From contig MHHQ01000005.1 of the NCBI GenBank assembly GCA_001817065.1, forward strand, positions 18,651 through 82,650: DNA of 64,000 nt. Reading direction: 5' to 3'. The translations under genes and the position numbers were made by a program. This document shows positions 3,689 through 59,618 of the stretch, piece by piece. How positions within the stretch are numbered: position 1 is the stretch's first letter; each line of letters opens with the position of its first letter. The notes beneath the pieces are model-generated. The model was given only the letters and a program-made list of their open reading frames with translations. It did not search any database and was not told the origin of the DNA. This stretch comes from Candidatus Andersenbacteria bacterium RIFCSPHIGHO2_02_FULL_46_16 (GTDB taxonomy: Bacteria; Patescibacteriota; Andersenbacteria; UBA10190).

Positions 3689-3733
3689 TTCTTCGCTCTT
3701 CACTATTGCTTCGAGCTTCGAAGTGCAAGCACT
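3689..3733. repeat. Direct repeat copy 1 (core GCTTCGAGCTTCGAAGTGCAAGCACT)
   Basis: A 26-bp exact core at 3708-3733 (about 45 bp imperfect) recurs at 3971-4015. Copy 1 immediately follows the tRNA-Pro 3' end and is followed by a T-run. Confidence 0.8.
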
Positions 3734-3970
3734 TTTTTTGGAGAGCAAACATTAATTCGGCAGACCAGATACGAAGAAATGCCCTGCGAAGCCCGATGGG
3801 GCGAAGTGTTGGCTAGTCAGGGACAACGCATCTTAATTTGACTTAACTAAGTGAAGATAAAAAACAGCTCATCGTTTTGAAGAACAATTACTTCATTCTC
3901 CAGAGTCCTGCAAAAAATCCTGTCTGCTCTATAGAGGCTAAATTAGATGCGTTGACCCTGGTTGGCTAGT

Positions 3971-4015
3971 GACTTCTCTTTTCGCTTACGCTTCGAGCTT
4001 CGAAGTGCAAGCACT
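3971..4015. repeat. Direct repeat copy 2 (core GCTTCGAGCTTCGAAGTGCAAGCACT)
   Basis: Exact 26-bp copy at 3990-4015. Together with copy 1 it brackets an inverted-repeat-bounded segment about 250 bp long. Confidence 0.8.
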
Positions 4016-9870: not shown

Positions 9871-10273
9871 GACACAATTGTACTACATAAAATAAAACAT
9901 TTTTCCGGAGGAAATACAAACCAGCACAACAATGTATCTCTGCTTCCTTCGCCGTAGTTAATCCTCCTGTCTGACCTCACTTAAATTCAATTCTGGTATC
10001 CCGCTCCATTCTACACCCTCAGACGAAGAATGGCTCTGCATAGCTTTAGAGCGAAGCATGGGCTGTTCACAAACTTGCGTTCGTTTAACTATGACGGGCT
10101 ACGAAGGGCAAGCCACTTCTTCGGAGCTACGAAGGGCAAGTAATTTCACCCAGCCAAAGGCGGTAGCAGATGGAGCGAGGCTCGATCAGCAGGTCGAGGT
10201 TCCCCCCGAAGTGCGATTTGCCCTGGGCGGCCCGCTCACGTAATAAACAACCCTGACGAAAGTCCAGGGTTAT

Positions 10274-11209
10274 TTATTGTATACTCTTTTCCAATTGTTC
10301 AAGCTTTTTGCGTAAATTAGTGTTCACGGCAATATAGCCTCGTTTCTTTTTTTCCTTCTTAGTTTCCAAAACTTTTTCTGCATCAGTGAGACAATTTTTA
10401 AACCAATCAATCTTTTGTTTTACAAGTTCGAGCGCGTTTATATTTTTAGCGCATTCTCTTAAAGTTTCCAAAAATCTACCCATAACTTCTTCGTAACCCT
10501 CGACTGAATGTGTTTCTGGTGATGGTGTGCGGCCATAATATTCGTCGGTGACATGATACTCCCAATCAAATTCTAAATTTTCAAGACGTAAGTACTCTCT
10601 TAGATATTTCCCCTGTATAGCTTCGGAATAGGCTGCGAAGGCTTCGGCATCCACTTGTAATTGATGGTTTCCCGTTGCTTGGGAAAATTTTTCCAATTCT
10701 TCGGCCATTGTTTTTATGACGGGGATTACCCCTAAAAAATCATCGTCGGATTCATGCACTTTATAAAAACGTTGTATCTGGAGACGTATCATATTTGCAA
10801 CGTCTGATAATCCTTCTATCCTGTTTTTATCTAGTGCAGAATCCTCAAATCCCTTTAACAACCCAATGAATTTTTCACTGTCTACTATATTAAGAATTAT
10901 GTGCTTGCTGGTATCTTTCTCCCTTTCTTCCTCTGGTAGGGGCACAAATAGAGTTTCCCTTAAATCGAGTTCTAATCCAGTCTTTGCCAGAAAATCAGTA
11001 TATTTTTCAGAAAGTGCTTCCATTTTTTTACTCACTGAGCTAAGAGCCTCAAAATCGTCATTACCATTCTCTCCTATCCGTTCCCATACATTAGCGTTGT
11101 CGTTCGCATTTTCAATATCGATAATGAAATCAGACAGTTGATCTTGAGGGAGGTTAACTTCATTTTCCTCGGGATTTCCGTAGTTAGATGGATTGAATCT
11201 TTCTCGCAT
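10274..11209 (-). CDS. Hypothetical acidic cytoplasmic protein, AT-rich orphan gene
   Basis: 311 aa and no recognisable domain. Markedly more AT-rich than its neighbours. Flanked by GAGCTTCGAAGNGCAAG-type repeats. A stem-loop terminator lies just past its stop, at roughly 10246-10272. Confidence 0.55.
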   Translation of the reverse strand: MRERFNPSNYGNPEENEVNLPQDQLSDFIIDIENANDNANVWERIGENGNDDFEALSSVSKKMEALSEKYTDFLAKTGLELDLRETLFVPLPEEEREKDTSKHIILNIVDSEKFIGLLKGFEDSALDKNRIEGLSDVANMIRLQIQRFYKVHESDDDFLGVIPVIKTMAEELEKFSQATGNHQLQVDAEAFAAYSEAIQGKYLREYLRLENLEFDWEYHVTDEYYGRTPSPETHSVEGYEEVMGRFLETLRECAKNINALELVKQKIDWFKNCLTDAEKVLETKKEKKKRGYIAVNTNLRKKLEQLEKSIQ

Positions 11210-11502
11210 TTTTTAACATTATTACAGACACGTTGGGAAATCAAAGTAAACCATTGGGAACAATATTTCCTCTATTTGCTAAAATCAGGCACAAAGAAAG
11301 TCGCCTGCATATTCATAACCGCAGTTCGGACGTCACTTAAGAAGGAGCTCCCTTTTTCGTTCCTCGCTACGCGCGGAGCTTCGAAGAGCAAGCCAATCTT
11401 TAGGTGCAGTAGTTTATCTTCTGTTAAGTTTTAGCGAAGAAATTTTTAGTGGAGAAAAAGTGGCTAGATTAATGTTGCGCAGTCTATTACCTGGTCCTAT
11501 AA

Positions 11503-15144: not shown

Positions 15145-15226
15145 TAAAAAGTTAAAAAGTACATAATCGGAGGATTACCCAGGTTAGCCAGGAAGAGCGT
15201 GTGATGGACACAGGGTTAGGTATATT

Positions 15227-16249
15227 ATGGAAATAAGGTTAAATTTTAAATCTTTGTATATGGTAAATTGGCAACAAAATAAAAAAATCATTATTACGGG
15301 GATAATACTGGTAATAGCGGTAGGGTGGTATTTATATAAAACAAGTAACCCGCCGGTAATTCCGTTTATGCAGTCCCAAAGCTTCCAGGAAGACATGGTG
15401 GGCAGCGCAGAGGTGCCAGCTGTCGCCAGGAAGGGAAGTGCGGCTATGCCGGGGGCAGCGGGTAATAGTTTGACAGCACCACTGGCATATGATGCCGCTG
15501 GTGTCCCGGAGAGTTTGAGTGAGGTACCGACGGCCGATGCCCGGAAAGTCGTGCAATCCGGTACGCTTGATCTAGTGGTTAATAAGGCAGAGGAGGCGGC
15601 TACGCAAGCACAAGCGCTGGCCCAGCAGGCGGGCGGTTTCGTGGAGAGTTTGCAGATTTATGAAGTGGTAGATGGCCAAAAGAGCGGGTCGGTCATTATC
15701 CGAGTGCCGGCAAATAAATTCCGGGAAACGATGGATAGCCTGAAAGCTTTGGCGATCAATACCGAGAATGAAGTAGTAAATACACAGGACGTGACAGCAC
15801 AATACGTGGATATTGAAGCCCGCTTAAAGAATATGCGAGCAGAAGAAGTGCAGTACTTGAGTATCATGGAAAGGGCAGTGAAGATTGAAGACGTTTTGAA
15901 TGTTACGCAACGACTAAGCGACGTGAGGGGTAGAATTGAACAACTAGAAGCTCAGCTGAAGTTATTAAAGGCTGAGGTGGAGATGTCATCAATAGTGGTC
16001 AATCTGACAGCCGAAGGGGACATTGAAGTGTTTGGGATACACTGGCGGCCGTTGGTGGTAATACGTCAGGCATTTAGAGACATGCTGAAGTCCTTAGCTG
16101 CGTACGCCGACCAAATTATAAAGTTCGTGTTTGCCTTACCGGTAATATTATTATGGATCGCCACCTGGGGAGTTGGTCTGCTGATAGCATGGAAGGTGGG
16201 AAACAGGATTAAACAGCGCTGGTTTGATAAGGATACGAATATTCATTAG
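15227..16249 (+). CDS. Membrane-anchored coiled-coil protein, DUF4349-like architecture
   Basis: N-terminal anchor, long coiled-coil, C-terminal TM segment. The DUF4349 assignment is from memory only. An alternative start lies at 15260. Confidence 0.4.
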   Translation: MEIRLNFKSLYMVNWQQNKKIIITGIILVIAVGWYLYKTSNPPVIPFMQSQSFQEDMVGSAEVPAVARKGSAAMPGAAGNSLTAPLAYDAAGVPESLSEVPTADARKVVQSGTLDLVVNKAEEAATQAQALAQQAGGFVESLQIYEVVDGQKSGSVIIRVPANKFRETMDSLKALAINTENEVVNTQDVTAQYVDIEARLKNMRAEEVQYLSIMERAVKIEDVLNVTQRLSDVRGRIEQLEAQLKLLKAEVEMSSIVVNLTAEGDIEVFGIHWRPLVVIRQAFRDMLKSLAAYADQIIKFVFALPVILLWIATWGVGLLIAWKVGNRIKQRWFDKDTNIH

Positions 16250-16277
16250 TCGACAGCGGGGCTACTAAAGAAGAAAA

Positions 16278-16305
16278 AAGCCCGGCATTGATAATAGCAG
16301 GGCTT
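16278..16305. terminator. Possible bidirectional stem-loop between convergent genes
   Basis: AAGCCC…GGGCTT 6-bp stem with a 16-nt loop, flanked by A-run and T-rich sequence. Weak. Confidence 0.25.
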
Positions 16306-16313
16306 GGTTAAAA

Positions 16314-16985
16314 TCAGTAAGGATTGTGAGGGTTTTGCATGTTGTAGGGAATAGTGGTGCGTTCGCCACGAAAATTAATCATTAGATGAGGCGATTCCCG
16401 TTGACGCAGAGCGACTATGTAAATTGGCTCAGCACATTTTACAGGGTCAGTAACAGAAAAGTCGCAAGAGAATGGGCGATCGATCAGATGGCAAAGGGTT
16501 TCCACGTGGGAGACTAATACATAGCAAATCGGCTGCGCTGAGTTGATGTGCCGGTTCATCAATGCCGTAAGGAGCTGAAAGATACGTGCTCGAACATGCG
16601 CGCGTGTCTCAAAGATTTCAGGATCATCAAATTCCGCTGCCTTCCAGTAAGCTTTTTCAATAGCCAAGGGGTCAGTGAGTGAACGATACCCAGCGAAAAT
16701 GCGTTGAGCGCGCTCTGGCTGATACTGCTGGACTGCAGCTAAGGCCGGTTCTTCTCCCAGTTTTGTTCCCATTAAAAAGGTATTTATGTATTGTCCTGAC
16801 CCGACGGCTCGTACTTTAGGAGAGGTGTACAAATGGATGGGATACCCGGCAGAAAAATTTTGGATAGGATATGAGCTGCGATAGAGAGCGGCCTTGCCTT
16901 GAAAAGTGATGTCAGGCGGTATGTCAGTATATTCGGTATGACCGTGACGCAGGAAAACAGCGCGGAACAATTCTTGGTCTGGCAT
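16314..16985 (-). CDS. Histidine phosphatase superfamily protein (phosphoglycerate-mutase-like)
   Basis: N-terminal 'FLRHGHTEYT' RHG motif of branch-1 histidine phosphatases. Confidence 0.6.
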   Translation of the reverse strand: MPDQELFRAVFLRHGHTEYTDIPPDITFQGKAALYRSSYPIQNFSAGYPIHLYTSPKVRAVGSGQYINTFLMGTKLGEEPALAAVQQYQPERAQRIFAGYRSLTDPLAIEKAYWKAAEFDDPEIFETRAHVRARIFQLLTALMNRHINSAQPICYVLVSHVETLCHLIDRPFSCDFSVTDPVKCAEPIYIVALRQRESPHLMINFRGERTTIPYNMQNPHNPY

Positions 16986-17165
16986 GGTAGGCCTTTCTCG
17001 AATAAGAGGTGGATTGGTAAGGTACTGAACAGAAAAGAGTACAGTGTTTTTAGCACGAAGTCAATAATAAATGGCGGAGTGTTTAGGCGGAGCTGAGAGG
17101 TGATGAGAGGGGAGACTAGATGGGCAGGTAAACAAATTTCGGGCAGACCGTGATATAATTAAGTT

Positions 17166-17579
17166 ATGAAATACGGACGATACGGATGGCCCTATTTGTT
17201 TTTACGAGTAGGGTTAGGGTTAACTTTCTTATTTATCGGGGTTGATATTTTGCGTCATCCGACGGTGTGGATTGGTTATGTGCCGCGCGAGACAATGCTT
17301 GGGTTGGACAGCGAAACAATGTTACGAATCGGCGGATTTTTTGATATGATCGTTGGAACTCTATTAATAATAAAGGCTTGGCCTAGAGTAGCCGGTGCGT
17401 TGGCAACGCTTCATTTAATAGGGATATTTTCTTTGAATGGGATTGATGGTGTGCTGGCTAGGAATATTGGATTATTGGGGGCGGCTATAGCAGTACTGGT
17501 GTGGCCGAATAGTTATCGCCGTAGGCGATGGTGGTGGAGTAAGCGCAGGAGATGGCGAGGGACGGAAGATGAGGTTTAA
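17166..17579 (+). CDS. DoxX-like small membrane protein
   Basis: 137 aa, 4 predicted TM segments, 'LRVGLGLTFLFIGVDIL' DoxX-like N-terminus, Arg/Trp-rich C-terminal tail. Confidence 0.5.
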   Translation: MKYGRYGWPYLFLRVGLGLTFLFIGVDILRHPTVWIGYVPRETMLGLDSETMLRIGGFFDMIVGTLLIIKAWPRVAGALATLHLIGIFSLNGIDGVLARNIGLLGAAIAVLVWPNSYRRRRWWWSKRRRWRGTEDEV

Positions 17580-17667
17580 TTGGAGTGATAGAGGTAGCCT
17601 AACAACTAGCGCAGGACACAAACAAAGCCAAAAATGCATTAACTGCAACGGCCGAAATAAAAATTAA

Positions 17668-17690
17668 AACAGCCCCTCGGGGCTGTTTTT
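17668..17690. terminator. Rho-independent bidirectional terminator
   Basis: AACAGCCCC-TC-GGGGCTGTT perfect 9-bp stem, with an A-run upstream and TTTTT downstream. Lies between convergent genes. Confidence 0.65.
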
Positions 17691-18840
17691 AGTACATGCT
17701 GAGAGGGTTAATGGGACGGCCCTGCTGACGAACTTCGAAGTGAAGATGAGGACCAGTCGATCGGCCGGTTGATCCAACCTTAGCGATAGTTTGACCTTGG
17801 TTGACGGACGCACCTTTAGAAACATAGATAGCTGAATTGTGAGCGTAGTAAGTGACTAATCCGCCACCATGGTTAATAATTACGAGGTTGCCATAACCGC
17901 CCAAGAAGCCAGTGAACTCAACCGTACCGGCGGCAGCGGCATAAATGGGCGGCAGTGATCGGTTGTCGATATCGATGCCAGTATGTCCCCAACGGAAATA
18001 CTGGGAAATGTGCTTGGAAGAGGTAGGCCAGATGAATCCAGCAGAGGTGTCGCTGGAAGCGGGAGGTACAGGACCATCAGCCACATGCGTCTCGTCGGCG
18101 ACGATACGAGGCGCAGAACGAGGAGCGATATAGCCGTCAGGGACGATTAGTTTTTGACCAACTGATAATTTACTAGTATCAGAGAGATCGTTGTATTGCG
18201 CGACATCTTTGGCATCCACATCATACTTATCGGCGATAGCCAGGAGCGTGTCACCAGAGTTAACAGTATGCAGGACGCCGGTTGTAGGTAAGATCGTCAG
18301 GTGGTCGCCGACATTAATAGTGTCTGAGCTAGACAATCCGTTAGCCCAGAGAATAGTGTTAGTACTGACATTGAATTGAGCAGCTATGCCAGCGATAGTG
18401 TCGCCAGGTTGGATGGTATAAATCTGTGATTTCTTGATGGCAACGGAGGTAGGCGGTGCTTCACTAGCCGGTTCTGGTACCACTGGATTTAATGGGGCAA
18501 CTAAAACATTGCCGCCCAGAGTTTGGGAAAAAGTAACTTCCGGATCCTCACCGGTGATTAGATCAATGCCCGTATTAACATCTAAAGCTGCTAATCTAGC
18601 CCCCCCAATGCCGGGAGAGTCAGTACTGGCATAAGCAGAGGGATCAAGAGGTCCTTCGATGACTTCTTCGCCAGCGATGACGTTATATAACAAAGAGTTG
18701 CGGTCTGTAACCGCAGCCTGATTACTGTGCCACGCTGCGCCAATGATAAGCGCGAGAAACGACGCGTGGATGATATATTTCTTAATAAGAGGAACTGAGT
18801 CCTGGCCGCTCGATAGGGTTGGAGGCGGTTCCTCCGACAC
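17689..18840 (-). CDS. M23 family metallopeptidase with two LysM domains
   Basis: LysM repeats ('YTIQPGDTIAGIAAQFNV', 'HTVNSGDTLLAIADKYDV') and M23 motifs 'HTGIDID…', 'GSTGRSTGPHLHFEV'. Confidence 0.8.
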   Translation of the reverse strand: MSEEPPPTLSSGQDSVPLIKKYIIHASFLALIIGAAWHSNQAAVTDRNSLLYNVIAGEEVIEGPLDPSAYASTDSPGIGGARLAALDVNTGIDLITGEDPEVTFSQTLGGNVLVAPLNPVVPEPASEAPPTSVAIKKSQIYTIQPGDTIAGIAAQFNVSTNTILWANGLSSSDTINVGDHLTILPTTGVLHTVNSGDTLLAIADKYDVDAKDVAQYNDLSDTSKLSVGQKLIVPDGYIAPRSAPRIVADETHVADGPVPPASSDTSAGFIWPTSSKHISQYFRWGHTGIDIDNRSLPPIYAAAAGTVEFTGFLGGYGNLVIINHGGGLVTYYAHNSAIYVSKGASVNQGQTIAKVGSTGRSTGPHLHFEVRQQGRPINPLSMY

Positions 18841-19224
18841 CTCTGTGAGGGACAGGTTAGATGGGGCGGGAGAAGATGTCTGGTCCCTAGTTCTCTTTGA
18901 TTGTTGATGATTTAAAATGCCGGTTGCTTAAAAAGCCAAATTGTATGTCCGGCGTGTTTGTTTTACTACCCTGCTAGCAGGGATAAGATGGTATTGTAGT
19001 TAGAGTAATGCATGAGTCAACATTGACATTGTTAAATTAATATCATGTTATATACAGAGTAGCAGCAGTATGCCCCGGGAGTTGCTTGAACGGGCAAAGT
19101 GTCAGATTTTTTTGACATTCGTTCGTGTGGATAAATAGAAGAGAAGAGAGTGCGAAAGGTTAAGAAATAAGCAAATCATCAGAATAAATTTCACTTATAT
19201 GATTAGATTAGAATAAAGAAATAT

Positions 19225-25613: not shown

Positions 25614-26498
25614 ATGAATCCGATAAATAAAATGGGGTGGCGAGTAGTGGGGATGACGACAGTGGTTGTATTAGTTATAGCTGGGTTATATTGGGGAGGA
25701 CAGAAATGGCTTAAAGGAGACGGTGATCAAACAACGACACCAGGCGGGTCTTTGTCTTTGGCCGATAAAACGCGAGATAGCGATGGCGATGGGATGGCCG
25801 ATTTGTACGAAACAGCTTTCTATAGTACTAATCCCAATAGTGCTGATACAGACGGTGATGGAACGGGTGATCGGGACGAGGTGGTGGCTGGCCGAGATCC
25901 GCTGATTCCAGGTCCAAACGATGTCAGTAAGCCGGCAACGGGTGAGCAAATCACTCAAGTGGACACCTTTACCAAAAAATATTTGGCATCGTTGCCAGAG
26001 GATGTGCCGCGCGAACAGATTCTGGATCAAGTAAGAATAGAAGCGTTCGTCAATGCGAATAAGGGAGCATTGCTGCCACCGGTCACTATAACTACTTCAT
26101 CGAATGAGGGAAAAGAGGCAGTGCAGGCTTACTTGGATGCCGTATCCAGCACACATAATAAAGAGTTGCGTATTGTTACGAGCGCAGATGTTGAGGCGGC
26201 ATTCCGGCTGCTGATTAATACCCAAGACAAGCAGCCAATGCAGGGGATTGTTGATGTTTTACGAAAGAATGTAGTGATACTGCAAAAAGTCACAGCACCG
26301 AACGAGGTAGCAGGCTTGCACGAAAAGATGATCGCAGCGACAACCGCGCTCCAAATCAACAGCGAGGGATTACTTAATATTGACCAGGATTTTGTCGGCG
26401 GTTTGATTGCGGCGAAAAAAATCGAGGAACTAGGTGGGGTGTTTCAGGAGATGGCGACATCGGTTAAGGAATTGGAGACTAAGTATGGATTGGAATAA
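25614..26498 (+). CDS. N-terminally membrane-anchored protein with TSP3-like Ca-binding repeats (paralog of 20143..21135)
   Basis: Anchor 'VVLVIAGLYWGG', then 'DSDGDGMADLYE…DTDGDGTGDRDE'. Same architecture as the 20143 gene. Confidence 0.55.
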   Translation: MNPINKMGWRVVGMTTVVVLVIAGLYWGGQKWLKGDGDQTTTPGGSLSLADKTRDSDGDGMADLYETAFYSTNPNSADTDGDGTGDRDEVVAGRDPLIPGPNDVSKPATGEQITQVDTFTKKYLASLPEDVPREQILDQVRIEAFVNANKGALLPPVTITTSSNEGKEAVQAYLDAVSSTHNKELRIVTSADVEAAFRLLINTQDKQPMQGIVDVLRKNVVILQKVTAPNEVAGLHEKMIAATTALQINSEGLLNIDQDFVGGLIAAKKIEELGGVFQEMATSVKELETKYGLE

Positions 26499-26590
26499 AC
26501 GAAACATGCATAAAACACAGGGGACGAAACATGCACAAAGCACAGAACACAAAACCCAAACAAAGCACAAAACTAACAGACCAAACAAAT
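26499..26590 (+). repeat. A+C-rich strand-biased intergenic repeat (family core CACAAAGC(C/A)CAAACAAA(A/G)CACA)
   Basis: 'gaaacatgcacaaagcacagaacacaaaacccaaacaaagcacaaaac'. The plus strand is almost devoid of G and T. Same family as 30798-31075, 32013-32180 and 33240-33300. Confidence 0.75.
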
Positions 26591-30299: not shown

Positions 30300-30797
30300 T
30301 TGTGCAGATTGTTTAATATGGGTCTTGATTATAATAGTATACCGTCGGGATCGGTGGTAACCGTGTCGCAAGCCGAAGGAGAGCAATATGTGGCGGGATT
30401 GTTTGAATTGCCCCAGATAGCTCGACAAGCCATGGTGTCGACGCGAACAGGGGCGTTTGTGAGAGGCCTGACTAAGGCTTATGGGCTGGAACAGATTAAA
30501 GCGCCGATAATTGCATTGTCAATATTAAAAACAGGGATTGGCAAGATACCGCTTAGTGGGTTGGGGGCTTATTTATCTGGCCAACTAAGGCTTCCTAACG
30601 ATAAAGCGCAAAGGATGGCGCGCGAGATAGAACAAGATTTATTTGAACCAGTTCGGCAGGAGCTGGAGGCGCATTGGGCGAAGCAGAAAAAAGAGGAACC
30701 GGGAAGGCAAGCACAGACGAAAGCGACAGAAGGAGGAGCAAGGAATGTGCTGAATCTTAAGATGGACAAAGCTCCGCCTAAGCCACCGTGGAGATAG
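30300..30797 (+). CDS. Hypothetical protein of the T4SS-like cluster
   Basis: 165 aa, no motif. An alternative start lies at 30318. Confidence 0.4.
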   Translation: MCRLFNMGLDYNSIPSGSVVTVSQAEGEQYVAGLFELPQIARQAMVSTRTGAFVRGLTKAYGLEQIKAPIIALSILKTGIGKIPLSGLGAYLSGQLRLPNDKAQRMAREIEQDLFEPVRQELEAHWAKQKKEEPGRQAQTKATEGGARNVLNLKMDKAPPKPPWR

Positions 30798-31075
30798 TAC
30801 ACAAAACATTCACAAAACACAGTGCACAAAGCCCAAACAAAACACAAAAGACAAACTGATACAAACACGACGCACTTATCCTACCGTTACGGTTGAGAAG
30901 GGGAATGAAACATTCACAAAACACAGTGCACAAAGCCCAAACAAAACACAAAAGACAAACTGATACAAACACGACGCACTTATACTGCTATTACTTTTGA
31001 GAGTAAGGGCGAAACATTCCCAAAACATAGTACACAAAGCCCAAACAAAACACAGTACACAAACACGAATAAACA
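30798..31075 (+). repeat. Tandem array (about 2.7 copies, 104-bp period) of the A+C-rich repeat
   Basis: Unit 'cattcacaaaacacagtgcacaaagcccaaacaaaacacaaaagacaaactgatacaaacacgacgcacttat…' starts at 30807, 30911 and 31015. Copies 1 and 2 are nearly identical; copy 3 is diverged. Confidence 0.85.
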
Positions 31076-31102
31076 GCGCGGACAGACTCTAAATGAGATT
31101 TA

Positions 31103-31992: not shown

Positions 31993-32012
31993 TTTTATAC
32001 AAAGGGCAGGTT

Positions 32013-32180
32013 AGAAACATTCCCAAAGCACAGTGCACAAAACCCAAACAAAACACAACAACCTAAACCTTACAAACAATCGACGAAACTTATCCAAAAC
32101 ACAGTCTTTGCAAACTTAACAAACCATAACAAAGCGGTGACAAAATTTTACGAACAACGATAAAAACAGATAAAAACACA
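32013..32180 (+). repeat. A+C-rich strand-biased intergenic repeat copy
   Basis: 'gaaacattcccaaagcacagtgcacaaaacccaaacaaaacacaaca…cgacgaaacttatccaaaacacag…'. Confidence 0.75.
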
Positions 32181-32188
32181 GGGTATGG

Positions 32189-32350
32189 AAGTCACATTAT
32201 GAAATGCCACAAATATAGTGACGGGCCCTGTCGGCGCTGCACCCCCACCCGACGGCTTCGGTCTGCCAGGCGGGCAGCCTGCAGGCGCTCGGTGGGGGTC
32301 CCCCGCGCCGCCACCCGTTTATTTAAGAGTGGCATTTCATAATGTGACAT
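32189..32350. repeat. Palindromic element: perfect 20-bp inverted repeats flanking a 118-bp GC-rich core
   Basis: GTCACATTATGAAATGCCAC at 32191-32210 and its exact reverse complement at 32329-32348. The core is about 75% GC and internally self-complementary (GCGCtgcaCCCCCACC / GGTGGGGGtcccccGCGC). Confidence 0.75.
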
Positions 32351-32507: not shown

Positions 32508-33239
32508 ATGTTAGAGAAGGACCAAAAAGGCAAATCCAGTCAGGAACTAGTGCAGATTACGGCGGTACGCGACGGAGTGGTGGTATTGGGGAATAATACC
32601 TTGCGGGCGACTTTGATCGTGTCTTCATTAAACTTCGCCTTAAAGTCTGAAGAGGAGCAAGATGCAATAATTTATGCCTTTCAAGGTTTTCTAAACTCAC
32701 TGGATTTCCCGGTACAGATTTTAGTGATGTCGAGAAAGCTGGATATTACATCCTATTTAGAGGAGCTGGATTCTCGTAAAGAACGGCAAAAAAATGAACT
32801 GCTGCGCTTGCAGATGGCCGAATATATTAATTTTATTTCAGAATTGGTCAAGGGTGGTAATATTATGACCAAGACTTTTTTTGTCTCCGTTTCGTTTGCG
32901 ATGGCGCAGAGCCGACAGTTGAACACGTTGGAAAAACTGGCCAAGACATGGCAAGGCATTGGAAAAGGCAATAAGCCATTTACTGACGTAGAGTTTGAGC
33001 ATTACAAGAAGCAATTAATGCAACGGGTGGAGCAAGTAGCTGTTGGTTTAAGAGGAGTGGGTTTACGTGTGGCACCGCTACAGACGCAAGAAGTGCTGGA
33101 ATTGTTTTACAGCATCCTAAATCCTGTTACGTCACGCAATTTACGTTTGCACAATGTAGCCAAACTGAGCGTAGAGGAAACCGGGGCACCAGACTTAGTG
33201 TCTAGCAACAGATCAGAGCAGCCGTGGGTGAGCAGGTAG
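32508..33239 (+). CDS. VirB4/TrbE-family N-terminal domain (CagE_TrbE_VirB-like), a separate ORF
   Basis: 'ITAVRDGVVVLGNNTLRATLIVSSLNFALKSEEEQDAIIYAFQGFLNSLDFPVQILVMSRKLD' resembles the conserved N-terminal region of VirB4 ATPases. No Walker motifs. The ORF ends at TAG 33237-33239. Confidence 0.5.
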   Translation: MLEKDQKGKSSQELVQITAVRDGVVVLGNNTLRATLIVSSLNFALKSEEEQDAIIYAFQGFLNSLDFPVQILVMSRKLDITSYLEELDSRKERQKNELLRLQMAEYINFISELVKGGNIMTKTFFVSVSFAMAQSRQLNTLEKLAKTWQGIGKGNKPFTDVEFEHYKKQLMQRVEQVAVGLRGVGLRVAPLQTQEVLELFYSILNPVTSRNLRLHNVAKLSVEETGAPDLVSSNRSEQPWVSR

Positions 33240-33300
33240 AGTACAAAACGTAGACAAAGCACAGACAGGCACAAAGTCCAAACAAAGCACAAGCCGTACA
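33240..33300 (+). repeat. A+C-rich strand-biased repeat copy, located between the two VirB4 pieces
   Basis: 'gtacaaaacgtagacaaagcacagacaggcacaaagtccaaacaaagcacaagccgtaca'. Confidence 0.7.
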
Positions 33301-41933: not shown

Positions 41934-42116
41934 CCTAAGTCACCGTAAATAAATAACTTAACCATCTCTCGCCCACTATGCACCAATCTGCGACTTTTTT
42001 TCAATCGCGAAACATTCAACGTAGTACTGCGCTTCGTATTTCGCTCAATCGAAAAAGTCGTATCTCGGCGCAGATTGAACGAGATCTGGCCAAGTTATTT
42101 ATTTACGGCGCCTAAG
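41934..42116. mobile_element. MITE-like element copy A: about 25-bp terminal inverted repeats, 183 bp, non-coding
   Basis: Left end CCTAAGTCACCGTAAATAAATAACTT, right end AAGTTATTTATTTACGGCGCCTAAG, an imperfect reverse complement. Internal sequence is shared with copy B at 59347-59618. Confidence 0.55.
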
Positions 42117-57104: not shown

Positions 57105-57797
57105 TTAATTAGTCGGCGCGGACGATGTGATAATCTCTGCTTGCTGGGCAATAATCAGGCTGTTGATAACTTGGGGGACAGTATTGATGGAGACGAGCCC
57201 AATGGTTGGTCCGTTAATGAAACTGTCGGTGAGACGACATGGTGTCTGGGACTGGAATAAACCGACGGACCCTCGATAGATTTTAGTTTGGCTGATGGCG
57301 ACGTGACTATTGGGCAGGCAACTGATGGCCGGGGAGGCATCGTTGATGGAAACGTGTTGCAGATCAATACTGGCTTGTGGTTGGGCCATGAGGCCAAGCC
57401 AGGTTTGGTTGAGGGGATGTTTTTCGTTGGACTGGAAAGTGATCGGAAGGGTGCTGGTTCCTTGGGCAAATAAACGACCATCAACAACTAGGGCGGTGTT
57501 TTCGGCGGCAAATATTTTAACACCCGGCTCAACGGTAACCGTAACTAAAGGATTAATGCGGGTGGTATTAACTAAGAGATACGGATTATGGCTAGCAGTG
57601 AGAGTTATGTTTTCCCGAATCACCGAAGGCAAGAAGATGCCGGTGGTAAAGAGAGGGGTGTGATAGTCGGGCTGGACAATAAATTCTGGTAAATAGAGAC
57701 GACTTTGCCAGTCGGTAGGAAATTTGTGTTCAATAGCGACAGCGAGCGGGAGTAAAAATAAGGCAAGAGTAATTAAGAGAGTGGGCAGGTGACGCAT
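57105..57797 (-). CDS. Secreted hypothetical protein
   Basis: Signal peptide 'LLITLALFLLPLAVA'. Beta-rich, no motif. Confidence 0.45.
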   Translation of the reverse strand: MRHLPTLLITLALFLLPLAVAIEHKFPTDWQSRLYLPEFIVQPDYHTPLFTTGIFLPSVIRENITLTASHNPYLLVNTTRINPLVTVTVEPGVKIFAAENTALVVDGRLFAQGTSTLPITFQSNEKHPLNQTWLGLMAQPQASIDLQHVSINDASPAISCLPNSHVAISQTKIYRGSVGLFQSQTPCRLTDSFINGPTIGLVSINTVPQVINSLIIAQQAEIITSSAPTN

Positions 57798-58184
57798 AGT
57801 ATAGACATATATATATTACACCAATACAAATTTTTACTGGTGATTTAAGCAGCTGTAAATGGCATGGGTTAAAGGGAGAAGTGAGGAAAATAAGGATATC
57901 CTCGGCTGATAACTGTAGACAGTAGAAGATAAGTATCGAGGCGTTTAGTCGCTGCGTCGGAGACGAAGCCACTGAACCCAACTGGATGCAGATCCCCCTA
58001 ATGATTGCCTACAGTTATCAACAGGGAACTACTAATAATAACGCAAAGGAAGGGTGATGGTCAAATGCGGGGGCGTGACTGACTGGTTGGCGATGGAGAA
58101 GATGGTAAACTGGTCTTTCGGGCTGGAGGTTTGTCACGGAAGAGACTTAGTGTTAGAGGGTTTAGTTATTGTTATACTTAGAAG

Positions 58185-59213: not shown

Positions 59214-59346
59214 AGAGATTTAGCACAACAACTTATCCCAAAGGATCCTTTTAGGGCAAACAATAATGATTCGGCTAAAAACTTAACTAACCCACGGCGA
59301 GTTACTAGGAAGCAAGAGGAGGGTCTTGTTTTTTGACTCTGGGTGA

Positions 59347-59618
59347 GCTAAGTCACCGTCTCAAAATAACTTAACCGTCTCTCGCCCACTATGCAATCTA
59401 CGACTTTTTCTCCAGCCTTCGCCAAGGCTACGGCCGGCAGGTAATCGCGAAACACTTACCGTAGTACTGCGCTTCGTATTTCGCTCCAGCTGTCGCTACC
59501 ACCTTCGCTAAAGCTACGGTGGTCAAGAAAGCTATGGCCGGCAGGCAATCGAAAAAGCTGTATCTCGGCGCAGATTGAACGAGAGATCTGACCAAGTTAT
59601 TTATTTACGGTGCATAAG
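59347..59618. mobile_element. MITE-like element copy B (272 bp; two internal duplications of about 35 and 75 bp relative to copy A)
   Basis: Ends GCTAAGTCACCGTCTCAAAATAACTT … AAGTTATTTATTTACGGTGCATAAG. Shares 'ctctcgcccactatgca', 'gtagtactgcgcttcgtatttcgctc' and 'gtatctcggcgcagattgaacgag' with copy A. Confidence 0.55.

What the first reader, a model, noticed from the sequence alone, without database searches (positions are those of the whole stretch)
41934..42116. MITE-like non-autonomous element present in two copies, one expanded by internal duplications
Two intergenic segments share about 25-bp terminal inverted repeats (…TAAGTCACCGT(A/C)(A/T)…AAATAACTT) and conserved internal blocks. The first is 41934-42116, between a GT2 gene start and the flippase stop. 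The second is 59347-59618, between ruvB and the CDP-alcohol transferase gene. Copy B carries two extra internal segments that each end in GGCCGGCAGG(T/C)AATCG, which indicates internal duplication. A degenerate partial end also lies at 59275-59310. Neither copy encodes a transposase, so they depend on a transposase encoded elsewhere. Their position at gene boundaries could give them terminator or promoter function.
Basis: seen in the sequence. Interest (0 to 1): 0.6.

Follow-up and report, generated by a model that had tools for sequence, protein, structure and literature searches.

The report
ISAzo13-type MITE in a CPR bacterium
The two look-alike intergenic segments are copies of a small parasitic DNA element (a MITE) with no transposase gene of its own, which inserts at TAA sites in an uncultivated groundwater bacterium and has the end sequences of ISAzo13-type insertion sequences: a well-documented but ordinary find.

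Summary
Window 41939-42112 (174 nt) and 59352-59614 (263 nt) are two same-orientation copies of one repeat, each flanked by a 3-bp TAA direct repeat. A TIR-pattern scan of JGI metagenomes found eight more insertion sites with unrelated flanks, so there are ten in all. Close relatives give precise empty sites for both window copies: a single TAA stands where the window has TAA-element-TAA. The 26-bp termini and the 3-bp duplication match one clade of ISAzo13-family insertion sequences (Pfam PF07592 transposase). These IS have the ends TAA/TAG-G-N5-GTAAAT/GAAATAACTTG. No transposase was found in the window or in any related locus.

The MITE reading is therefore strongly supported, and I can name the partner family. 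Three corrections apply:
- The two extra segments in copy B define a long-form subfamily found at three or more loci. They are not a private duplication.
- The "degenerate end" at 59275-59310 is ancestral spacer.
- Simple scans find no promoter or terminator signal.

The whole element is one ~85-bp imperfect hairpin, with no Rfam match, no covariation and no orientation bias. It is a new member of a known kind, of modest interest.

The parts
41936..41938 (.). Left target-site duplication (TAA) of copy A
   Evidence: TAA flanks both ends. The relative L065 has a single TTA (window minus-strand reading) at the exact position, with matching flanks on both sides.
41939..42112 (+). MITE copy A, short form (174 nt), one long imperfect hairpin
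   Evidence: The family profile hit covers exactly 41939-42112. It is absent from the orthologous flippase-GT2 junction in L065 and L066 and present in L067.
41939..41964 (+). Left terminal inverted repeat of copy A (GTCACCGTAAATAAATAACTTAACCA)
   Evidence: It is the inverted match to 42087-42112. It has the same architecture as the ends of ISAzo13-clade IS.
42087..42112 (-). Right terminal inverted repeat of copy A (reverse complement GGCGCCGTAAATAAATAACTTGGCCA)
   Evidence: Positions 5-27 of the terminus (CCGTAAATAAATAACTTGGCCAG) match the left IR of the L039 ISAzo13-family IS at 22 of 23 bases, at the same distance from the duplication.
42113..42115 (.). Right target-site duplication (TAA) of copy A
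59349..59351 (.). Left target-site duplication (TAA) of copy B
   Evidence: With the element and one TAA removed, the spacer aligns collinearly with the MITE-free spacer of L058. Window GAGC-TAA-GTCG corresponds to L058 CCGAC-TAA-GGCC.
59352..59614 (+). MITE copy B, long form (263 nt)
   Evidence: Alignment to A is. The profile hit is 59352-59613. It is absent in relatives L058 (RuvB 94% identical) and L054-L057 (90%).
59352..59377 (+). Left TIR of copy B, degenerate (GTCACCGTCTCAAAATAACTTAACCG)
59413..59442 (+). Module 1: 30-nt GC-rich insert in the left arm at CTC^AATCG
   Evidence: It is absent from short-form copies. It is present in L031/L037 and L033/L034, and in a variant form in L029. 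A similar 30-mer lies inside an unrelated palindromic repeat at L001 20367-20397.
59487..59546 (+). Module 2: 60-nt GC-rich insert in the right arm at CTC^AATCG
   Evidence: It shares the core CCTTCGCYAARGCTACGG and the tail GGCCGGCAGGY with module 1. It is present in L031/L037, L033/L034 and L032. A related sequence stands alone at L038 9340-9392.
59589..59614 (-). Right TIR of copy B (reverse complement TGCACCGTAAATAAATAACTTGGTCA)
59615..59617 (.). Right target-site duplication (TAA) of copy B

Best explanation
Both segments are copies of a MITE, a non-autonomous cut-down DNA transposon. It lives in a Candidate Phyla Radiation bacterium related to Candidatus Andersenbacteria.

The element consists of two ~26-bp terminal inverted repeats (G-N5-GTAAATAAATAACTT-RRCC) around a non-coding core, and the whole folds back on itself as an ~85-bp imperfect hairpin.

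It is, or recently was, mobilised in trans by a DDE transposase of the ISAzo13 family (Pfam PF07592). That enzyme recognises these ends and inserts at TAA, preferably C-TAA-G, duplicating the 3 bp. Because the target is TAA, copies land in intergenic DNA and often exactly on a stop codon, which the duplication regenerates.

Two size classes have transposed as units: a short form of ~177 nt like copy A, and a long form of ~265 nt like copy B with two GC-rich modules at symmetrical points of the arms.

What is shown: multicopy dispersal, the TIRs, the 3-bp duplication with empty sites, and the match of the ends to ISAzo13-clade IS. What is inferred: that such a transposase does the moving, and that it is or was present in this genome. 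Any effect on neighbouring genes is unproven. One example would be a very stable hairpin in the flippase-GT2 operon transcript.
For: **Dispersed family.** A metagenome scan with the TIR pattern returned 13 loci. These loci add eight insertion sites with unrelated flanks; with the two window copies that makes ten sites, at 92-97% identity. Contigs from several independent assemblies end inside the element, as expected of a repeat.

**Target-site duplication.** TAA/TAA flanks 6 of 10 sites and TTA/TTA flanks L035, so 7 of 10 are perfect.

**Empty sites.**
- Copy A: window (reverse complement) GGCTGACCCTC-TTA-[element]-TTA-GGCTGTTATAAT, against L065 GGCTGACGCTT-TTA-GGCTGTTATAAT. The flippase-GT2 spacer is 205 nt in the window, 28 nt in L065 and 21 nt in L066.
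- Copy B: the ruvB to CDP-OH-transferase spacer is 457 nt in the window, 196 nt in L058 and 86 nt in L054-L057. The alignment with L058 is collinear once the element and one TAA are removed.

**Autonomous relatives.**
- The TIR pattern also hit the left end of a ~1.29-kb IS in L039. Its 408-aa ORF matches PF07592 at E=5e-141, its ends are TAG-GAGCCCGTAAATAAATAACTTGACCAG and (reverse complement) GAGTCTGTAATGAAATTACTTGACTAG-CTA, and it is flanked by TAG/TAG.
- Transposases 74-77% identical to that one were found by protein search, independently of the DNA pattern. They sit in IS with the same end architecture and TAA/TAA duplications. L059-L063 have TAA-GGAATTGTAATGAAATAACTTGAC. L064 has TAA-GAAATCGTAAATAAATAACTTCCC ... 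ACGATGCC-TAA.
- More distant plasmid-borne ISAzo13 members also show C-TAA-GG...CC-TAA-G junctions.

**No coding capacity and no known RNA family.**
Against: - No ISAzo13-type transposase was found in the 64-kb window or in any CPR-lineage locus retrieved. A resident autonomous partner is therefore not demonstrated, and the family may now be immobile.
- The matching IS lie either in a 63% GC organism or on short contigs of unknown host.
- Similarity between the MITE and these IS is confined to the terminal ~27 bp.
- Three of the ten sites have imperfect duplications: L029 TAA/TTA, L031/L037 TAA/TAT and L038 ATA/TAA.
- The marked strand asymmetry of the hairpin is not explained by a purely DNA-level parasite. 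The minus-strand RNA folds at -88 to -105 kcal/mol, against -61 to -67 for the plus strand.
Confidence: 0.9

Rival explanations
1. The element is a MITE that has been co-opted. The transcribed hairpin would act at the RNA level as an RNase III processing site, an mRNA stabiliser or attenuator between cistrons, or a small RNA. Selection would act on the minus-strand RNA structure. This adds to the MITE origin and does not replace it.
For: - In every copy the minus-strand RNA folds 25-40 kcal/mol better than the plus strand. About 8-10 arm oppositions are A.C on plus, which is G.U on minus, against 0-3 the other way.
- Copy A sits inside a flippase-GT2 operon transcribed from the minus strand, so that mRNA would carry the stable version. 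The junction is only 21-28 nt in relatives.
- In L031/L037 the apical stem has a double change that keeps pairing: GTAGT/ACTAC becomes GTAGC/GCTAC.
Against: - The asymmetry is inherited from one master copy, so it counts as about one observation. Roughly 9 against 2 gives a two-sided p of about 0.07.
- Among the short-form copies, 0 of 68 pairs show compensatory change. Pair-breaking single changes are about as common as pair-keeping ones.
- Orientation relative to flanking genes is mixed. Copy B would be transcribed as the weaker plus version.
- There is no Rfam match and no terminator- or promoter-like site beyond chance.
Confidence: 0.1
2. The element is a MITE, but it is mobilised by a different transposase family that also makes 3-bp TWA duplications, such as IS5-family subgroups or PIF/Harbinger-like enzymes. 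Alternatively it is an IS630/Tc1-type element with a TA duplication.
For: The TWA duplication alone does not identify a family; that such duplications occur in IS5 subgroups and Harbinger elements is my own knowledge, not tested here. No resident ISAzo13 transposase was found.
Against: - The termini match ISAzo13-clade IS in sequence (up to 22 of 23 bases), in register (duplication + G + 5 nt + GTAAAT/GAAATAACTTG) and in the duplication itself. This was seen in IS found by two independent routes.
- A TA-only duplication does not fit L035 (TTA/TTA) or the two empty sites, which carry one full TAA/TTA.
Confidence: 0.04
3. The segments are a family of structured non-coding RNA genes, or conserved regulatory leaders, and are not mobile DNA.
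For: Folding energies are very low relative to shuffles, with z = -8 to -12.6. The segments lie in intergenic DNA.
Against: - Precise presence/absence with a 3-bp duplication in close relatives.
- Unrelated flanks and both orientations relative to genes.
- Ends homologous to IS ends.
- No covariation and no Rfam family.
Confidence: 0.02
4. A segmental duplication of an intergenic segment within this genome.
For: Only two copies lie in the 64-kb window.
Against: The flanks of A and B are unrelated, and similarity stops at the TAA repeats. Eight further sites exist in other contexts, and empty sites exist for both copies.
Confidence: 0.01

Closest known systems
ISAzo13-family insertion sequences (DDE transposase, Pfam PF07592), specifically the clade of the IS in L039, L059-L063 and L064
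   Same: The terminal architecture is the same: a 3-bp duplication (TAA or TAG), then G, 5 variable bases, then GTAA(A/T)(T/G)AAAT(A/T)ACTTG. Up to 22 of 23 bases are identical to the L039 left IR. The right end ACGGTGCC-TAA compares with L064 ACGATGCC-TAA. The C-TAA-G target preference is also shared.
   Different: The element is 174-263 nt, against about 1.3 kb for the IS, and has no transposase ORF. Its interior is unrelated to the IS interior. It is palindromic over its whole length. No autonomous member has been found in the same lineage.
ERIC/IRU elements of enterobacteria and Correia (NEMIS) elements of Neisseria: whole-length or TIR-bounded palindromic MITE-like repeats (comparison from my own knowledge of the literature, not tested here)
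   Same: They are small, non-coding, intergenic repeats that fold into a long imperfect hairpin when transcribed. They exist as size classes that differ by internal insertions or deletions at fixed points, insert at short A/T targets, and are often co-transcribed with neighbouring genes.
   Different: There is no sequence relationship. The duplication here is 3 bp (TAA), whereas it is TA in those elements. The host is a CPR bacterium. The partner family (ISAzo13) differs from those proposed for those elements. RNase III processing and IHF binding, shown for Correia, are untested here.
REP/BIME elements mobilised by RAYT (TnpA-REP) transposases (considered only for the two GC-rich modules)
   Same: The modules are short (30-60 nt) GC-rich hairpin-forming units. 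Their reverse complement contains GTAG next to a palindrome. A module-1-like unit also occurs inside an unrelated repeat.
   Different: In the window the module core occurs only inside copy B. No RAYT gene was seen. There is no evidence that the modules move on their own, and the resemblance is a lead only.

Membership tests
MITE (miniature inverted-repeat transposable element) | Small size with no transposase ORF | tested here: met
   The elements are 174 and 263 nt, and the longest internal ORF is 55 aa. tblastn with the ISAzo13 transposase finds nothing in the window.
MITE (miniature inverted-repeat transposable element) | Terminal inverted repeats | tested here: met
   The TIRs are about 26 bp, conserved in all ten copies.
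MITE (miniature inverted-repeat transposable element) | Target-site duplication, verified against an unoccupied site | tested here: met
   The duplication is 3 bp, TAA or TTA. Precise empty sites exist for copy A (L065, L066) and copy B (L058, L054-L057).
MITE (miniature inverted-repeat transposable element) | Multiple dispersed copies in unrelated contexts | tested here: met
   Ten distinct insertion sites were found, and assemblies break inside the element.
MITE (miniature inverted-repeat transposable element) | TIRs shared with an autonomous IS | tested here: met
   The ends match the ISAzo13-clade IS in L039, L059-L063 and L064.
MITE (miniature inverted-repeat transposable element) | Autonomous partner present in the same genome | not testable with these tools
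   None was found in the window or in the retrieved CPR loci. The rest of the MAG (GCA_003501005.1) could not be read, and the genome-contig scan did not recover it.
ISAzo13-family derivative | End sequence in register with family IRs | tested here: met
   The core GTAAATAAATAACTT starts at position 7 from the terminus in both the MITE and the IS. Identity to the L039 IRL is 22 of 23.
ISAzo13-family derivative | Same duplication length and target as the family | tested here: met
   IS copies are flanked by TAG/TAG (L039) or TAA/TAA (L052, L053, L059-L061, L064), and the MITE by TAA/TAA.
ISAzo13-family derivative | Mobilisation by a PF07592 transposase | not testable with these tools
   This needs a binding or transposition assay.
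Structured non-coding RNA family | Covariation supporting the structure, constant orientation to a promoter, or an Rfam match | tested here: not met
   0 of 68 pairs are compensatory, orientation is mixed, and Rfam gives nothing at E<=1.
REP/BIME (RAYT-mobilised) | Abundant 20-40-nt GTAG-headed palindromes plus a RAYT gene | tested here: not met
   The main element is 174-263 nt with TIRs and a duplication. The module core occurs only inside copy B in the window. No RAYT gene was looked for beyond this.

The most novel reading that the evidence does not exclude
The element may be more than a passive parasite. Its hairpin is strongly strand-asymmetric: the minus-strand RNA is almost fully paired through about 9 G.U pairs. 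This could reflect selection on a transcribed RNA, for example an RNase III-cut dsRNA that uncouples or tunes cistrons such as flippase-GT2 in a genome with few regulators.

A second reading is also not excluded. The lineage may lack its own transposase. Its TIR is nearly identical to that of an IS in a 63% GC bacterium, so the transposase may have been supplied by horizontal transfer from a co-resident, possibly host, organism.
Probability: 0.1. Interest if true: 0.5.

Novelty: new member of a known kind. Interest (0 to 1): 0.3.

Why it matters
CPR (Patescibacteria) genomes are small and are usually described as poor in mobile DNA. A full-text search found no paper on MITEs in CPR bacteria and none on ISAzo13-derived MITEs.

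This family gives four useful things:
- It shows recent transposition, as presence/absence between relatives whose flanking proteins are 85-94% identical.
- It explains why assemblies of this lineage break at these points.
- It yields a usable profile and TIR pattern for masking or strain typing.
- It documents the 3-bp TAA target and end consensus of one ISAzo13 clade.

It does not change how MITEs are understood.

Tried and rejected
- **Genome-contig scan.** I used the central 18-mer GTAGTACTGCGCTTCGTA. It returned 18 hits, all chance, with matches no longer than 18-23 nt and none in a CPR bacterium. That used the only scan of that collection.
- **Viral-contig scans.** Two scans with internal blocks found nothing.
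- **blastn of the TIR against PLSDB plasmids.** No match.
- **Rfam.** Nothing at gathering thresholds or at E<=1.
- **L035 as an empty-site comparison.** L035 is syntenic with window 15214-19030 at 76-80% identity. I rejected the comparison because L035 carries an extra 323-aa gene next to its copy.
- **Contigs with identical RuvB or GT2 proteins.** All of them carry the element, so they say nothing about polymorphism within the population.
- **Search for the resident transposase.** I picked low-GC-looking homologues using an amino-acid composition proxy. This gave IS on 1.6-4-kb contigs of unknown host.
- **Covariation analysis.** No compensatory pairs.
- **Modules as an abundant REP-like family.** Not supported in the window.

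Full report
**Observation**

Reading the two regions and aligning them confirms two same-orientation copies of one sequence. The shared blocks are 92-97% identical, and within-window BLAST E-values reach 1e-19. Similarity stops at a TAA on each side.

- Copy A is 41939-42112 (174 nt), flanked by TAA at 41936-41938 and 42113-42115.
- Copy B is 59352-59614 (263 nt), flanked by TAA at 59349-59351 and 59615-59617.

B differs from A mainly by two extra segments, 59413-59442 (30 nt) and 59487-59546 (60 nt). Both follow CTC, and both end in GGCCGGCAGG(T/C) before AATCG.

Copy A lies between a GT2 glycosyltransferase gene and a Wzx-type flippase gene, both on the minus strand. Copy B lies between ruvB and a CDP-alcohol phosphatidyltransferase gene, both on the plus strand.

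Neither copy has an ORF longer than 55 aa. A family profile search finds exactly these two copies in the window and nothing at 59275-59310.

**Anatomy**

The inverted repeat is not limited to about 25 bp. The left arm and the reverse complement of the right arm match at about 62 of 88 positions, so the whole element is one long imperfect hairpin. It folds far better than shuffled sequence, with z = -8.1 on the plus strand and -12.6 on the minus strand.

In every copy the minus-strand RNA is 25-40 kcal/mol more stable than the plus strand. About 8-10 oppositions are A.C on plus, which read as G.U on minus, against 0-3 the other way.

**A dispersed family**

- Contigs from several independent assemblies that carry the identical RuvB or GT2 protein end inside the element. 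This is typical of a repeat.
- A scan of JGI metagenome contigs with the pattern CCGTAAATAAATAACTTRRYC gave 13 loci.
- Ten of those loci carry full or truncated elements, at eight further insertion sites with unrelated flanks: L029, L030, L031=L037, L032, L033=L034, L035, L038 and L040.
- Most of these loci are tied to the window's lineage by other shared sequence. L035 is syntenic with window 15214-19030 at 76-80% identity.
- RuvB and flippase homologues at 43-70% identity are labelled Candidatus Andersenbacteria, which places the source in the CPR.

**Termini and duplication**

Across the ten sites the conserved sequence begins G(T/G)C(A/G)CCGTAAATAAATAACTT and ends AAGTTATTTATTTACGG(C/T)GCC. 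The 3 nt outside are:

- TAA/TAA at six sites;
- TTA/TTA at L035;
- imperfect at three sites: L029 TAA/TTA, L031/L037 TAA/TAT and L038 ATA/TAA.

A C usually precedes the duplication and a G often follows it, which suggests a C-TAA-G target. At L029, L032 and L033/L034 the duplicated TAA is the stop codon of the adjacent ORF.

**Empty sites**

Homologues of RuvB and of the flippase led to syntenic contigs of close relatives.

- *Copy A.* The flippase-GT2 spacer is 205 nt in the window, 208 nt in L067 (flippase 94% identical, element present), 28 nt in L065 (85%) and 21 nt in L066 (78%). The alignment reads, for the window (reverse complement), GGCTGACCCTC-TTA-[element]-TTA-GGCTGTTATAAT, and for L065, GGCTGACGCTT-TTA-GGCTGTTATAAT.
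- *Copy B.* The ruvB to transferase spacer is 457 nt in the window, 196 nt in L058 (RuvB 94% identical) and 86 nt in L054-L057 (90%). With the element and one TAA removed, the window spacer aligns collinearly with L058. The single TAA of L058 (CCGAC-TAA-GGCC) lies at the junction.

**The partner family**

Three of the 13 loci (L036, L039 and L041, one sequence, 63% GC) matched the pattern only once. The match is the left end of a ~1.29-kb IS. Its 408-aa ORF hits Pfam PF07592 (DDE_Tnp_ISAZ013) at E=5e-141. Its ends are GAGCCCGTAAATAAATAACTTGACCAG and, in reverse complement, GAGTCTGTAATGAAATTACTTGACTAG. It is flanked by TAG on both sides.

The chance expectation for this pattern across the metagenome collection is unknown, so a single hit is weak evidence. 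I therefore looked for independent confirmation.

- Protein homologues of this transposase at 74-77% identity, chosen for low-GC composition, sit in IS with the same architecture.
  - L059-L063 (42-45% GC): C-TAA-GGAATTGTAATGAAATAACTTGAC ... GCAAGTTATTTCATTACAGACCC-TAA-G.
  - L064 (45% GC): TAA-GAAATCGTAAATAAATAACTTCCC ... GGGAAGTTATTTCTTTACGATGCC-TAA.
- In all of them the conserved block starts at position 7 from the terminus, as in the MITE, and the duplication is 3 bp.
- More distant ISAzo13 members on Mesorhizobium and Skermanella plasmids also show TAA-GG...CC-TAA-G junctions, in Mesorhizobium preceded by C.
- No ISAzo13 transposase is encoded in the window or in any CPR-lineage locus retrieved. 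MITE-IS similarity is limited to the termini.

**The size variants**

- The short form (174-177 nt) occurs at A, L030, L035, L038, L040 and L067.
- The long form, with both modules, occurs at B, L031/L037 and L033/L034.
- L029 has only a diverged module 1.
- L032 is an internally deleted copy that retains module 2.

The long form has therefore transposed as a unit, and B was not privately expanded.

The modules share an 18-nt core, CCTTCGCYAARGCTACGG, and the tail GGCCGGCAGGY. They sit at the same heptamer context, CTC^AATCG, in opposite arms. In the window the core occurs only inside B. A module-1-like 30-mer is inserted in an unrelated palindromic repeat in L001, and a module-2-like sequence stands alone in L038. 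Their origin is unresolved.

**Tests of an RNA-level role**

- Rfam gives nothing at gathering thresholds or at E<=1.
- On the short-form alignment, 0 of 68 predicted pairs show compensatory change. Single changes that keep pairing are about as frequent as those that break it, as expected for neutral transitions.
- Orientation relative to neighbouring genes is mixed.
- Consensus scans find no promoter- or terminator-like sites beyond chance.
- The strand asymmetry is inherited from the master copy, so it amounts to roughly one observation (about 9 against 2, two-sided p about 0.07). I record it as unexplained and not as evidence of function.

**Verdict**

The element meets every testable criterion for a MITE, and its ends place it with one clade of the ISAzo13 family. 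The most likely mechanism is trans-mobilisation by a PF07592 DDE transposase, with insertion at TAA and a 3-bp duplication. The mobilisation step is inferred, and the resident transposase has not been found.

Architecturally it resembles ERIC and Correia elements: a whole-length palindrome, size classes from internal modules, and intergenic, co-transcribed positions. That comparison rests on my knowledge of the literature.

A full-text search found no report of MITEs in CPR bacteria or of ISAzo13-derived MITEs. It is a new member of a known kind, useful for annotating and assembling this lineage, and of modest general interest.

Noticed in passing
window 32190-32350: This is a second, unrelated whole-length palindromic repeat. 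Its 20-bp TIRs are GTCACATTATGAAATGCCAC and GTGGCATTTCATAATGTGAC, around a GC-rich interior. The RNA MFE is -96.9 kcal/mol (z = -9.3). Copies at about 98% identity lie in L031 1-81, L033 1-146, L037 3602-3697 and L038 7737-7838, and one at 80% in L001 20330-20550. It is probably another MITE family. Rfam gave only a chance-level hit.
   Followed up: partly
L001 20367-20397; L038 9340-9392: Sequences like the two GC-rich modules of copy B occur outside the MITE. A module-1-like 30-mer is inserted in the other palindromic repeat. A module-2-like 50-mer stands alone. This hints that the modules are small insertional units in their own right.
   Followed up: partly
window 42020-42035 (apex of copy A) versus L044, L067, L068: Copy A has two alleles in the population. 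The window allele has the apex CGTAGT---ACTGCG, identical to copy B. L044, L067 and L068 have CGTAGTTCGACTACG at the same locus. Gene conversion between copies A and B is possible.
   Followed up: no
window 26494-26590, 30785-31096, 32007-32078, 33238-33292: A/C-rich repeats with the motif CACAAA(A/G)C lie in intergenic spacers upstream of plus-strand genes. They include three tandem 104-nt units at 30785-31096.
   Followed up: no
window 3691-4015 and 10098-11399: Short repeats of the type GCTTCGAGCTTCGAAGTGCAAGCACT and GCTACGAAGGGCAAGCC are present. They resemble the GC-rich hairpin motifs common in CPR genomes.
   Followed up: no
L029 297-299, L032 3735-3737, L033 5780-5782: At three insertion sites the duplicated TAA of the MITE serves as the stop codon of the adjacent ORF. 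The element's target preference therefore places it exactly at gene ends.
   Followed up: partly
L054 17311-18336: The relative that lacks the MITE carries a gene with HTH_38/HTH_32 domains at its contig end. It may be the N-terminal part of an IS30- or IS630-like transposase. It is unrelated to ISAzo13.
   Followed up: no
L001 8513-9479 versus window 57105-57981: Strains with identical RuvB differ upstream of it. L001 and L007 have three small ORFs where the window, L002 and L003 have a YebC-family gene plus a beta-helix gene. This is a small strain-variable island.
   Followed up: no
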